Positions 17,909 through 45,810 of a stretch of 64,000 nt of DNA are shown piece after piece. How positions within the stretch are numbered: position 1 is the stretch's first letter; every line of letters begins with the position of its first letter. This DNA is from the human T2T-CHM13v2.0 reference genome, Homo sapiens. The translations under genes were made by a program, and so were the position numbers. The stretch lies in assembly GCF_009914755.1 (NCBI RefSeq), contig NC_060927.1; one strand, written 5' to 3'. Below the pieces are notes generated by a model. It saw only the letters and a list, made by a program, of their open reading frames with translations, searched no databases and was not told the DNA's origin.

Positions 17909-18149
17909 AAGACAGACAATCTGTTTGGCTCCTTACAGTCCTAAAATTACAGGGATAAATAATTTAATGGACAAATAAATTTTGTTATTTTATAGGGTTC
18001 ACAATTAAGAGAAGTAGAGGAGATAATTTCAGTGGAAGGAATAATAGAAACCCCTCAAAATCCAATTTTATAGCTGTATAAAATGAAGAACAAAATGTTA
18101 TCTTTTCAAATGTCTTTAATTATCTAATATTCTCATTTTTTCTAAAAAG

Positions 18150-21098
18150 ATAATAAAAGGAGGTTTTTTAATTCAAAGGTATAACTGAATAGGTAGATTT
18201 GTTTATAGCTATTCTTGTGAAACACTTTTAAAAAAAAATACGACCAACTTCTGTGCAAATAGCAGACACATACCTCAACTATCATGAGCTAATTTTTGGT
18301 GGATAATATACATAATTAGGCACAAATAGGCAAGTTCACACTGGTAGATTAAGTATCAAATATTCAGTCAAAACTCCATTTGTGGCCCCCACTTCTTGAT
18401 CGAGTTCTATTCCCACTTCATCTTCTACCATCTTGTCGACTTCCTGAGTGACTCCCTTGTCGACTCTGTCTACCTGATAGGCCACCAGATGGACCACCTG
18501 ACTGGCCTGACCCGCCTGACCAGCCACTTGACCAGCCATTCCTCCGTTGGGGATTAGAAGACTTGTTTCCATCATAATATTCTTCAATTTCAGGTAATTT
18601 GGCTGGCACTGAGAGTATCCAGTTGGAATCGTGCCACACTGCCTGTAACCTTTCTGATTCAGTTGTAGGAACATCAAAGCAAACACCCATATTTCCTTTC
18701 AGGAGGCACACACTGGTAATCTGAGACGCTGTATTACTACTTAGCTTTCTGTTAAGTTCTTTCCAGGCACAGGTGACATCCTGTATTTCCTCTAGGCTTT
18801 CCAGAGTCATGGTCATCAGAGGCGATCAAAGACTGTGGTTCAAAACTTGATGCACCAGAAATGTGGGCTAAAGTTGCAGCCAATGCATCCACTGCCCCTT
18901 TCTCTTCTATCAGTCTCTGAGCTGATGGTCAGAAAAAATCAACAGCAGCATAAGAAACGGAAGTCAGAAACCTGATGGTATCCATGCTTTTAGATTTAAC
19001 TAAATCCATTGTAGAAGGAACACCTACACATTTAAAAGTAATTCTTGCTTTTTGTTCCACATATCTTAGTTGACCTCTTTCTCTTGGTTGATAAAAACAT
19101 ATACAAATCCCTGTCCAGCTCTACCTGTGCATCCAGAGCGATGGATACGGGCCTCAACATCCTGAGGAGGAGAATGTTGAATCACCAGGTCTACTTCAGG
19201 AATGTGCAAACTATGGGCAGCCACATTGGTTGCCACCAAAACTTTAAAACTATCTTCTCTGAAGCCTTTTAGTGTAATTTCTCTTTGTGACTGTGCAATA
19301 TCCCCATGTAAACACTGGGCATTCTGTTTTATGTGTGGATTCATGGCCATTTCAGTTACATTCTTCCTGGTCTCACAGAAAATAATAGCCCTCCCTTCAG
19401 ACCCACTGTAGACTTGAAGGACATCTCCAATAACTGCTGGCCTCTGAGACCAATGACACTGAATGGCCAAGTGTTCCACAGTAGTTGCAGCCTTTTGAGT
19501 CATTTATCCAATAAGGTCAACCTGTTCATATCTGGATTTCATGTATTTATTTGCAACTTTGTATACCCACTGTGGGCAAGTTGCAGAAAAAAGTAAAGTC
19601 TGAGGATGGTCTTCAGATTCAGTTTTGTAGGATTTGTGAATCACATCTTCAACTTGTTCATTAAAATCTAAATCTAACGTTTGATCCACTTCATCAAGCA
19701 CAACATGGCACAGTTTAGAAAGATCCAATCAGCCACTCTGCAGATGATCTTTGATATGACCAGGGGTTCCAACCAAGATGTCAATACCATTTTGCATATG
19801 ATTAATTTGGCTTTGATATGGTATTGCACCATAAAAACACACCATGCTGAGTTTCCTAGTTTTATCTTTGAAGTCTTTGGCTACTTGGTTTGCCAGTTCC
19901 CTTGCTGGAGCCAAAACAAGTACCTTTGTTGAGCAGCTTTTTAAAAATTGTTTCTTGATTTCTTTGGAGTCTTTCAATCAAGGGGATGGCAAAAAAGAAT
20001 GTCTTTCCTGTTCCTGTCCATGCTCGAGCTATTAAATCTTTTCTTTCAAATACAGGACAAGGTCCTAACTTGAATAGGAAAGAGATATGTTACCCTTTGA
20101 TGTTTCAGAAGCTTTACAGTCTCTTCAGAAATACGGAAATAGGAGAAAGCTCTTTCTTTCTGTTCACATGTTAAGGTCTCCTCTAGTTTATTATCACTTG
20201 ATTTATGAGTAGAACTATCTAAGGATGATACTTGCTTTGATTTTTTTTTTCATATTCATCAATATTTCCATTTGGTAGATCTTTTCTTCCTATGAGATTT
20301 AGAGAATTTATCTGAAAGTCTACAAATCCTTCTTCAGTGTCTCCATTTAGCTTCTCTTTCATTTTAGTTTTTTTTGGCCTTGGAAGCATCCAGGTCATCT
20401 ATAACAACATTTTCTCTTGTTTTTGATTTCTCATCTGGGTCATAATGGTGCCTTGACTTCCTTCTGTCACTCCAGCACTGTGTAATGTGTTTTCAGCTTA
20501 TCTTGTTTAAATCTTCATAACAACCCTATAAGGGAAGTACAGGTCTATAATCCCTTATCTGAAATTGCAATATCGATAGAGCTCTTAGTGATAAGGTCAG
20601 GGGGTAGATTCTGCTTTCTAAGGCTATACAAAATAAGTCTCATTCTCTTGTTGAATGTCAGCCTTCAAATACTGCCACCTTAGCCTCTTCAGCTGATTTC
20701 TTTTTTGCAGGTCAAATGTTTCCAGTAAAAATTTTACCTGTGCATTTTCCAGCACCCTGTGATCCTCTGAGTGTTTCAGGATTTTTTTTTCCTTTTCCTT
20801 TTTTTTTTGGAGGGCAGGCGGGTGGGAGGAGGAAAGACTCTACAACTCCTCTACAGGCTCCTTGAGGGCAGGGACCATTTCTTAGTTTAAGCCCCTCGGT
20901 GCTCAGCAAAGAGTATAGTACAAATTAGGTTCAATAAATACCTTTTGCCTGTCCTTCTTCTGGCTCTCGGACTCCTCCAAGGGTGTTTTCAGCTCCATAA
21001 TGTCGCCCCAAGGAGTTTCCCAGGCATTACTGGCCACCACCTCCCTCCACGCACAGTGGCCACAACTACCTGTGGGCAGTGACAGCATGGAAGGAAGC
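18150..21098 (-). pseudogene. DDX50P2: DDX50 (nucleolar DExD-box RNA helicase Gu-beta) processed pseudogene, likely DDX50P2
   Basis: Intron-less homology from the 5' UTR and ATG (21027; MPGKL-WGDIMEL) through [31 protein letters not shown] and the GUCT/RS-GG tail to TGA at 18364-18366. 3' UTR has ATTAAA at 18167-18172. Many frameshifts and stops. The P2 suffix is recalled, not verified. Confidence 0.9.
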
Positions 21099-21256
21099 TG
21101 GGCCTAATGCTTTACTCAAATCACACTGATATTGAAAATGATGAATCATTCTGATGAAAAATGATCAAGTTTCTGCATGAAACCTCATTTTACATTGATT
21201 TTATGGCCAAAACGTAAGCTTCTGAAATGAATATATCTTGATACTTAAGTTACTAT

Positions 21257-21553
<297 letters not shown>

Positions 21554-43929: not shown

Positions 43930-45810
<1,881 letters not shown>

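What the first reader, a model, noticed from the sequence alone, without database searches (positions are those of the whole stretch)
20472..20941. DDX50 retrocopy preserves a 470-nt extra 'poison' exon between exon 1 and exon 2
Seen: the otherwise fully spliced pseudogene has 470 nt inserted precisely between ...CAA AAG (RQK) and AGT GAC AGA (SDR), with no TSD and no poly-A. In minus-strand reading the insert starts with an L2-like segment (gtatttattgaacc...ggtccctgccctcaaggagc) and ends in a MIR-like segment (tatagggttgttatgaagatttaa...acagtgctgg). It adds a stop after 12 codons (VFIEPNLYYTLC*) and is not a multiple of 3. Known: L2 and MIR were inactive long before this primate-age retrocopy, so they could not have inserted afterwards. 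From recall, this position (codon 29/30) is the DDX50 exon1/2 boundary. Inference: the retrotransposed mRNA included a TE-derived cryptic exon from DDX50 intron 1. It would be a fossil of an NMD-type isoform expressed in the ancestral germline, suggesting poison-exon regulation of DDX50. An internal donor-like CAG|GTAAAA at 20738/20737 suggests a shorter variant too.
Basis: partly seen in the sequence, partly recalled or inferred. Interest (0 to 1): 0.8.

Follow-up and report, generated by a model that had tools for sequence, protein, structure and literature searches.

The report
DDX50 retrocopy preserves two extra exons
The 470 extra bases in this dead copy of DDX50 are two spliced, repeat-derived exons from the parent gene's first intron that put an early stop in the message, and an alternative exon at this spot in the live gene has already been shown by RT-PCR.

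Summary
Exactly 470 nt sit between the copies of DDX50 exon 1 (…CAA AAG) and exon 2 (AGT GAC…) in DDX50P2.

The insert is two exons, not one. Both map to DDX50 intron 1 on chr10 and both have canonical AG/GT borders there.
- Exon A is 358 nt here (window 20941-20584) and 377 nt in the parent.
- Exon B is 112 nt (window 20583-20472).
- The parent introns removed around them are 579, 3799 and 373 nt.

With A, the message stops at codon 42. With B alone, it stops at codon 52.

A separate retrocopy on chr2 reads exon 1-B-exon 2 at the same junctions. It shares no indel with the chr3 copy. So B was captured in 2 of 2 retrocopies that keep a 5' end.

Dispersed repeats supply A's acceptor and B's donor. 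The names L2 and MIR rest on recall only.

The exon slot is not new. A 2013 Frac-seq paper amplified a DDX50 cassette exon with primers that I mapped to exon 1 and exon 2. The inclusion form sat in lighter polysomes.

Regulated "poison-exon" control is not shown. B is as stable in the parent as real exons, but so are the UTRs. A is compatible with neutral drift.

This is a neat, ordinary case of a retrocopy recording a splice isoform.

The parts
20942..21102 (-). Retrocopy of DDX50 exon 1 (5'UTR plus codons 1-29). It starts at the same base as the parent exon 1 alignment and as the chr2 copy.
   Evidence: window 21102-20940 aligns to L002 757-923 (C10:69770116-69770282) at 89% identity; alignment, with a 1-nt and a 3-nt deletion; the chr2 copy starts at the same base.
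20584..20941 (-). Copy of cassette exon A of DDX50 intron 1 (358 nt here, 377 nt in the parent, C10:69770860-69771236). It carries the first in-frame stop (codon 42).
   Evidence: 88% identity with gaps, 333/356 aligned bases identical. Parent flanks are ccgcag|GTGTTT and CACTAAG|gtaaac. Translation.
20851..20941 (-). Part of exon A derived from a dispersed repeat (L2-like by recall). In the parent the repeat also covers about 43 nt upstream, so it supplies the acceptor site.
   Evidence: the 20-mer at window 20857-20876 has 1143 genome matches at <=2 mismatches, against 2 for the reversed control; a profile of 11 copies aligns to C10:69770817-69770959, E 8.5e-11.
20472..20583 (-). Copy of cassette exon B of DDX50 intron 1 (112 nt, C10:69775036-69775147). 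Included alone it shifts the frame and stops at codon 52.
   Evidence: 107/112 identical. Parent flanks are ttttcag|AGCTTT and GTGCTGG|gtaggt. The chr2 retrocopy has exon 1-B-exon 2. Translation.
20472..20540 (-). Part of exon B derived from a second dispersed repeat (MIR-like by recall). In the parent the repeat runs on through the donor site into the intron.
   Evidence: the 20-mer at window 20509-20528 has 425 genome matches, against 19 for the control; a profile of 10 copies aligns to C10:69775079-69775148 (envelope to about 69775168), E 5.3e-10.
20732..20740 (-). Internal donor-like CAG|GTAAAA inside exon A. It is a motif only.
   Evidence: kept in the parent. No evidence of use.
18144..20471 (-). 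Retrocopy of DDX50 exons 2-15, canonically spliced, ending at the parent's poly(A) site.
   Evidence: each stretch maps to a separate chr10 block between C10:69775520 and 69816263; the 3' end matches the parent's 3' end.
18100..18143 (-). Decayed A-rich tail of the retrocopy.
   Evidence: AGAAAAAATGAGAATATTAGATAATTAAAGAC... follows the parent's last aligned base. No target-site duplication of 8 nt or more was found.

Best explanation
DDX50P2 is a full-length processed pseudogene. It was copied, most likely by the L1 machinery in the germline of an ancestral primate, from a fully spliced and polyadenylated DDX50 mRNA with the structure exon 1 - A - B - exon 2 ... exon 15.

A and B are two cassette exons inside DDX50 intron 1. 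Each was created when an old interspersed repeat supplied one splice site. An L2-like repeat gives A its acceptor. A MIR-like repeat gives B its donor.

Including either exon makes the message unproductive. A brings a stop at codon 42. B alone shifts the frame and stops at codon 52. Both stops lie far upstream of the last exon junction, so the isoforms are predicted NMD targets, or at best very short reading frames.

B is a recurrent exon and still exists. An independent chr2 retrocopy carries it, and a cassette exon in this intron is detectable by RT-PCR in human cells.

Shown: origin, borders, reading-frame effect, independence of the two copies, and repeat derivation.
Inferred: L1 mediation, germline source, NMD sensitivity, and that the RT-PCR exon is B.

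Whether inclusion is a regulated brake on DDX50 or tolerated splicing by-product is open. I put regulated control at about 0.25-0.3.
For: - Mapping: the insert hits chr10 in two blocks, query 1-358 and 357-470. Exon 1, A, B and exon 2 lie in order in the parent with introns of 579, 3799 and 373 nt.
- Borders: all six splice junctions flanking exon 1, A, B and exon 2 are canonical GT or AG.
- Rest of the copy: it maps exon by exon to 15 chr10 blocks. Those blocks rebuild a 2214-nt, 737-codon open frame.
- Reading frame: exon 1+A(+B)+exon 2 stops at codon 42, exon 1+B+exon 2 at codon 52, and the canonical join stays open.
- Second record of B: the chr2 copy aligns to exon 1+B+exon 2 without a break, 536/574 identical.
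- Independence: 0 shared indel columns out of 26 (chr3) and 27 (chr2). Sites where both copies differ from the parent are 11 synonymous and 6 non-synonymous, against 34 and 125 in the copies (Fisher p = 0.0004). Three of the 6 are parallel CGA/CGT to TGA/TGT decay.
- Repeats: 1143 vs 2 and 425 vs 19 genome matches. The profile alignments span A's acceptor and B's donor.
- Living gene: Frac-seq (PMC3787259, passages read) assayed a DDX50 cassette exon. Its primers map to exon 1 (C10:69770193-212) and exon 2 (C10:69775527-546). Inclusion was enriched in lighter polysomes, as a short reading frame would predict.
Against: - No target-site duplication of 8 nt or more was found around the retrocopy, and its A-tail is decayed. 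L1 mediation is therefore inferred from the structure only.
- Exon A has a single witness, the chr3 copy.
- I could not see which intron-1 exon the Frac-seq RT-PCR amplified.
- The stops lie only 126 and 156 nt from the start codon. By recall, start-proximal stops often escape NMD, so 'NMD-type' may overstate the fate of these isoforms.
- The names L2 and MIR come from recall, not from a call.
Confidence: 0.9

Rival explanations
1. One reading: A and/or B are regulated poison exons. Their inclusion is kept by selection to tune DDX50 output through NMD or translational silencing, and it was high in the ancestral germline.
For: - B is present in 2 of 2 retrocopies that keep a 5' end. If isoforms are sampled by abundance, this implies inclusion of at least about 22% at 95% confidence (my arithmetic).
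- B has 0 parent-specific changes in 112 sites, against 7 (chr2) and 5 (chr3) in the copies (binomial 0 of 7, p = 0.008). At non-CpG sites the counts are 0: 6: 2.
- The parent keeps both CpGs of B that decayed in the copies.
- The inclusion isoform is visible in the cytoplasm and shifted to light polysomes (PMC3787259).
Against: - The same skew holds for the UTRs (non-CpG 2: 12: 17). B is not distinguishable from ordinary exons (Fisher p = 0.62). The test therefore cannot separate selection on B from a generally lower rate of change at the parent locus.
- A is compatible with neutrality: 19/348 non-CpG differences against 7.4% expected, p = 0.09.
- No cross-species data were available.
- No paper in the library pairs DDX50 with 'unproductive splicing' (0 papers). 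The only paper with 'poison exon' mentions DDX50 in another context.
Confidence: 0.27
2. The 470 nt entered the retrocopy after it was inserted, as a transposon or other insertion into the pseudogene.
For: The insert contains repeat-family segments. RefSeq draws it as a gap in the pseudogene model (hub table).
Against: - The same sequence lies in the parent's intron 1 in two blocks.
- It sits exactly at an exon junction.
- It has no flanking duplication or terminal A-run.
- Block B sits at the same junction in the chr2 copy.
Confidence: 0.01
3. The retrocopy came from a partly processed pre-mRNA (intron 1 retention or an alternative exon 1 donor), not from extra exons.
Against: - A starts 579 nt after exon 1 ends.
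- 3799 nt between A and B and 373 nt between B and exon 2 are precisely missing.
- Every border is AG or GT.
Confidence: 0.02
4. The chr2 and chr3 copies are not independent: one descends from the other, with A removed later. B would then have been captured only once.
For: Exon A begins with GT and ends with a pyrimidine-rich stretch plus AG. In principle it could be spliced out of a transcribed retrocopy.
Against: - 0 shared indel columns out of 26 and 27.
- 111 and 90 private substitutions, against 24 shared-against-parent sites in 2259.
- Within the coding sequence, the shared-against-parent sites are mostly synonymous in the parent's frame or parallel CpG decay. That is the signature of change in the living gene, not of shared decay.
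Confidence: 0.03

Closest known systems
[quoted passage not shown]
   Same: A retrocopy preserves a non-canonical exon structure of its parent's mRNA and so reports an isoform expressed in the germline.
   Different: Here two independent retrocopies of one gene record two different unproductive isoforms (A+B, and B alone). None of the 5'-complete copies records the canonical mRNA. I found no paper describing this for DDX50P1/P2 (3 papers, judged from titles and abstracts to be GWAS, expression and survival-prediction studies).
The DDX50 intron-1 cassette exon assayed by Frac-seq (Sterne-Weiler et al. 2013, PMC3787259; passages read)
   Same: The primers lie in exon 1 and exon 2, so the assayed exon lies in the same intron as A and B. 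The inclusion form sat in lighter polysomes, which fits a 41- or 51-codon reading frame.
   Different: The paper's text does not say which exon was assayed or give its coordinates. A second RT-PCR of a 'DDX50 cassette exon' (PMC5029452) does not name the exon either.
Exonization of ancient repeats (MIR, L2) creating alternative, often unproductive exons (general knowledge, recalled)
   Same: Each exon takes one splice site from a dispersed repeat, and both are non-coding with stops in all three frames.
   Different: The family names were not tested with a repeat library. The rest of exon A (about 280 nt) and the first 43 nt of B matched no repeat in my limited tests.
Poison exons of RNA-binding proteins (AS-NMD; cited in PMC3787259 as Ni et al. 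2007, seen in a passage)
   Same: A cassette exon with a premature stop in an RNA-helicase gene.
   Different: No evidence here for NMD sensitivity, for regulation or for deep conservation. The stop is start-proximal.

Membership tests
Processed pseudogene (L1-mediated retrocopy) | Intron-less copy of the parent mRNA with exact exon-exon junctions | tested here: met
   17 consecutive blocks map to separate chr10 exons. The junctions were checked.
Processed pseudogene (L1-mediated retrocopy) | Ends at the parent's poly(A) site and is followed by an A-tail | tested here: met
   the copy ends where the parent's last exon alignment ends and is followed by a decayed A-rich stretch.
Processed pseudogene (L1-mediated retrocopy) | Target-site duplication flanking the copy | tested here: not met
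   the longest shared word between the flanks is 7 nt and is not positioned at the ends. This could be decay over an estimated 22-49 My.
Processed pseudogene (L1-mediated retrocopy) | Disabled reading frame | tested here: met
   there is a frameshift in exon 1, and 26 indel columns against the parent.
Cassette exon of the parent gene | Bounded by AG and GT in the parent genome | tested here: met
   for both A and B.
Cassette exon of the parent gene | Independent transcript evidence | tested here: inconclusive
   B: met through the independent chr2 retrocopy. A: one witness only. RT-PCR shows a cassette exon in intron 1, but which one was not resolved.
Poison exon (AS-NMD) | In-frame premature stop more than 50-55 nt upstream of the last exon junction | tested here: met
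   stops at codon 42 (A) and codon 52 (B alone), with 14 or more junctions downstream.
Poison exon (AS-NMD) | Inclusion isoform rises when NMD is blocked | not testable with these tools
   No expression data are held. No paper was found.
Poison exon (AS-NMD) | Sequence constraint on the exon beyond the neutral rate | tested here: inconclusive
   B shows 0 parent-specific changes against 7 and 5 in the copies (p = 0.008 and 0.03). The UTRs show the same skew, and A is not below neutral (p = 0.09).
Repeat-derived (exonized) exon | The segment belongs to a high-copy dispersed family and a splice site lies inside it | tested here: met
   1143 vs 2; 425 vs 19; profiles span A's acceptor and B's donor.
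Repeat-derived (exonized) exon | The family is identified as L2 or MIR against a curated repeat library | not testable with these tools
No Dfam or RepeatMasker library is available.

The most novel reading that the evidence does not exclude
Exon B is a selectively maintained, MIR-derived poison exon of DDX50, and its inclusion was the dominant germline form in ancestral anthropoids. Both 5'-complete retrocopies stem from unproductive isoforms and none from the coding mRNA. That pattern could reflect strong germline down-regulation of DDX50 by splicing. It could instead mean that poorly translated, stop-bearing mRNAs are preferentially taken up by the L1 machinery.
Probability: 0.2. Interest if true: 0.55.

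Novelty: new member of a known kind. Interest (0 to 1): 0.3.

Why it matters
It shows that the 'gap' in the RefSeq model of DDX50P2 is part of the retrocopy. It corrects the structure to two exons. It also gives two independent records, roughly 18-49 million years old, that unproductive DDX50 isoforms were abundant enough in the germline to be retrocopied. That makes one question directly testable: is DDX50, a nucleolar RNA helicase, tuned by a repeat-derived exon? The exon slot itself and the idea of retrocopies as isoform fossils are both already known, so the gain is modest.

Tried and rejected
- The Shemesh 2006 paper is not held, so I cite it only from reference lists and from recall.
They probably hold the event coordinates and gel sizes that would say whether the assayed exon is A or B. 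The primer table of PMC5029452 (Supplemental Table S4) was not seen either.
- The first whole-genome DNA search with the insert found only 4 places. nhmmer of A and B with flanks against 103,361 bases of held DNA found no dispersed copies inside the exons. It found only a repeat in the intron after A. Both methods were too insensitive for old repeats, and the 20-mer counts settled the point.
- Literature leads that proved irrelevant: PMC11368187 names DDX50 only as a candidate risk gene. PMC6440020 reports a mid-gene mouse exon. PMC7290577 has nothing on isoform capture.
- Zero-hit searches: DDX50 + 'unproductive splicing' and DDX50 + 'exonization'.
- Constraint tests on A and B were run in two ways and remain inconclusive.
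- My first exon borders were off by 1-4 nt in several exons. I corrected them until the parent frame was open over 737 codons. The synonymous/non-synonymous counts are superseded.
- The internal CAG|GTAAAA donor has no supporting evidence of any kind.
Full report
**What is in the window.** On the minus strand the DDX50P2 retrocopy runs from about window 21102 to 18144. Between the copy of exon 1 (…GGCAAAAG, ending at 20942) and the copy of exon 2 (AGTGACAGAAGG…, starting at 20471) lie exactly 470 nt. They have no flanking duplication and no terminal A-run. In the frame set by CAA AAG the insert reads VFIEPNLYYTLC and then a stop.

**Where the insert comes from.** A search of the window's own genome found the insert at four places:
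- itself;
- chr10:69770860-69771236, matching insert bases 1-358 at 88% identity;
- chr10:69775034-69775147, matching bases 357-470 at 96%;
- chr2:32250218-32250332, matching bases 356-470 at 90%.

Aligning the whole retrocopy to the chr10 loci places four blocks in order:

| Block | chr10 coordinates | Length |
|---|---|---|
| Exon 1 | 69770116-69770280 | 165 nt |
| A | 69770860-69771236 | 377 nt |
| B | 69775036-69775147 | 112 nt |
| Exon 2 | 69775521-69775817 | 297 nt |

The introns between them are 579, 3799 and 373 nt, and intron 1 is 5240 nt in all. The borders in the parent are all canonical:
- exon 1: CAAAAG|gtgcgc
- A: ccgcag|GTGTTT … CACTAAG|gtaaac
- B: ttttcag|AGCTTT … GTGCTGG|gtaggt
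- exon 2: ttcacag|AGTGAC

The rest of the copy maps exon by exon along chr10 up to 69816263. Weaker hits to a paralogue lie just beyond. The chr10 exons rebuild an open frame of 2214 nt, or 737 codons. Primers published as 'DDX50' map to this locus, and the hub table names the pseudogene DDX50P2.

So the insert is not one exon. It is two spliced cassette exons of DDX50 intron 1: A at window 20941-20584 (358 nt) and B at window 20583-20472 (112 nt). This rules out a later insertion into the pseudogene. It also rules out intron retention and an alternative exon 1 donor.

**Effect on the message.** All translations below start from the parent's start codon.
- Exon 1 + exon 2 stays open.
- Adding A, with or without B, stops at codon 42 (VFIEPNLYHTLC*).
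- Adding B alone shifts the frame (112 = 3×37+1) and stops at codon 52.
- A has 6-8 stops in every frame and B has 1-3.

At least 14 junctions lie downstream. By the usual 50-55-nt rule (recalled) these isoforms are predicted NMD substrates. The stops are only 126 and 156 nt from the start codon. By recall, start-proximal stops often escape NMD, so the real fate may be a short, poorly translated reading frame.

**A second, independent record.** The genome holds three DDX50 retrocopies:
- chr3, the copy in this window;
- chr2:32250087-32252751;
- chr4:108989958-108991222, which covers only query bases 1668-2951. It is 5'-truncated and so says nothing about the 5' exons.

The chr2 copy aligns without a break to parent exon 1 + B + exon 2 (536/574 identical). 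It carries B at the same junctions and lacks A.

The two copies are independent.
- They share 0 indel columns out of 26 (chr3) and 27 (chr2).
- Over 2259 three-way aligned canonical sites there are 111 chr3-private and 90 chr2-private changes. There are 24 sites where both copies differ from the parent, and 4 sites where all three differ.
- Within the coding sequence, 17 sites have both copies differing from the parent. They split 11 synonymous to 6 non-synonymous, against 34 to 125 for the private changes (Fisher p = 0.0004). Three of the 6 are CGA/CGT in the parent against TGA/TGT in both copies, which is parallel CpG decay.

That is the pattern of change in a living, selected gene, not of shared decay. 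B was therefore captured in 2 of 2 informative retrocopies, and A in 1 of 2. If retrocopying samples isoforms by abundance, two of two implies B inclusion above about 22% at 95% confidence (my arithmetic).

**Age.** Private divergence is 4.9% for chr3 and 4.0% for chr2. With recalled neutral rates of 1.0-2.2 × 10⁻⁹ per site per year, this gives 22-49 and 18-40 million years. No other primate genome was available to check this.

**Repeat origin.** Two first attempts found no dispersed copies of the exons. One was the genome DNA search. The other was nhmmer against 103,361 held bases. Counting near-matches of one 20-mer from each claimed segment settled the point.
- The exon A motif (window 20857-20876) has 1143 genome matches at ≤2 mismatches, against 2 for the reversed control.
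- The exon B motif (window 20509-20528) has 425, against 19.

Profiles built from 11 and 10 unrelated copies align to the parent as follows.
- The first aligns at chr10:69770817-69770959 (E 8.5e-11). This is about 43 nt upstream of A's acceptor plus A's first 100 nt.
- The second aligns at chr10:69775079-69775148 (E 5.3e-10). This is B's last 69 nt through its donor, and the envelope runs on into the intron.

So one repeat supplies A's acceptor and another supplies B's donor. The consensus lines of those profiles look to me like the L2 3' end and MIR. That is recall, and no repeat library was on hand.

**Is it known?** Frac-seq (Sterne-Weiler et al. 2013, PMC3787259; I read the passages that mention DDX50, NMD and cassette exons, plus the oligo list) tested a DDX50 cassette exon by RT-PCR across polysome fractions of HEK293T cells. 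[quoted passage not shown] Its forward primer maps to exon 1 (chr10:69770193-212) and its reverse primer to exon 2 (chr10:69775527-546). The assayed exon therefore lies in intron 1. The event came from an existing catalogue of annotated events (MISO). B is my guess.

A RASL-seq study (PMC5029452, passages read) also validated 'DDX50 (cassette exon)' from a pool of 5502 annotated events, without naming the exon in the text.

The idea that processed pseudogenes record splice isoforms goes back at least to Shemesh et al. 2006. I saw only the reference entry, and the content is recalled.

I found no paper on the structure of DDX50P1 or DDX50P2 (3 papers which, from their titles and abstracts, are a GWAS, an expression study and a survival-prediction study). 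None links DDX50 to unproductive splicing (0 papers) or to exonization (0 papers). The only 'poison exon' co-mention is unrelated.

**Is it a regulated poison exon?** The only test open to me was a lineage test of substitutions.
- B has 0 parent-specific changes in 112 sites, against 7 (chr2) and 5 (chr3). The binomial p values are 0.008 and 0.03.
- With CpG sites removed the counts are 0: 6: 2 (p = 0.016).
- The UTRs show the same skew (2: 12: 17). B does not differ from canonical exons (Fisher p = 0.62).
- A differs from its chr3 copy at 19 of 348 non-CpG sites (5.5%), against 7.4% expected if both lineages were neutral (p = 0.09).

B has therefore been as stable in the living gene as real exons. 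That is compatible with constraint, but not specific evidence for it. A looks neutral. Regulation remains an open inference, and I put it at about 0.25-0.3.

**Verdict.** It needs three corrections. There are two exons, not one. The exon slot was already known and assayed. Nothing supports the internal donor. This is a new, tidy example of a known phenomenon. The most interesting residue is that both 5'-complete retrocopies descend from unproductive isoforms.

Noticed in passing
window 20940-20941 and 20584-20600; parent C10:69770860 and 69771236: Exon A begins with GT directly after its acceptor, so joining exon 1 to A regenerates a donor-like AAG|GTGTTT. A also ends in a pyrimidine-rich stretch plus AG. 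This is the layout of a recursive-splice exon, but GT at an exon start is common by chance and the intron is only 5.2 kb.
   Followed up: no
window 18144-21094 (hub table): RefSeq draws DDX50P2 as two 'exons' (18144-20471 and 20942-21094) with the 470 nt as a gap. The gap is an artefact of aligning to the canonical mRNA, because the 470 nt belong to the retrocopy. The pseudogene lies inside an intron of GPR149 on the same strand.
   Followed up: partly
L007, G000:C4:108989958-108991222: A third DDX50 retrocopy on chr4 is 5'-truncated. It covers only bases 1668-2951 of the chr3 copy at 86% identity.
   Followed up: no
L004/L008 about 2150-2448 (chr2 copy): The chr2 retrocopy lacks the stretch matching window 19943-19732 (end of exon 4, exon 5, start of exon 6). 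At that place it holds about 300 nt that include an Alu-like piece matching window 21399-21319 in reverse.
   Followed up: partly
window 21256-21399: An Alu-like repeat lies just upstream of the retrocopy. It matches several places in the chr10 and chr2 loci at 77-85% identity and ends in an (AAAT)n-like tail.
   Followed up: no
parent codons 285 and 720 (C10:69782296, 69815993): Both retrocopies independently turned the same two CGA arginine codons into TGA stops. This is parallel CpG decay, and a naive reading could take it for shared ancestry.
   Followed up: yes
window 43969-44089: This stretch matches a repeat in the parent's intron just downstream of exon A (nhmmer E 2.3e-4). It is an unrelated dispersed repeat.
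   Followed up: no
window 20780-20812; parent exon A: Exon A holds an internal A-rich tract that is longer in the parent (about 22 A, then GGAAAAGAAAAAA). It may be the tail of an old retroposon in the intron. Most of the length difference between the parent's exon A (377 nt) and the copy (358 nt) lies here.
   Followed up: no
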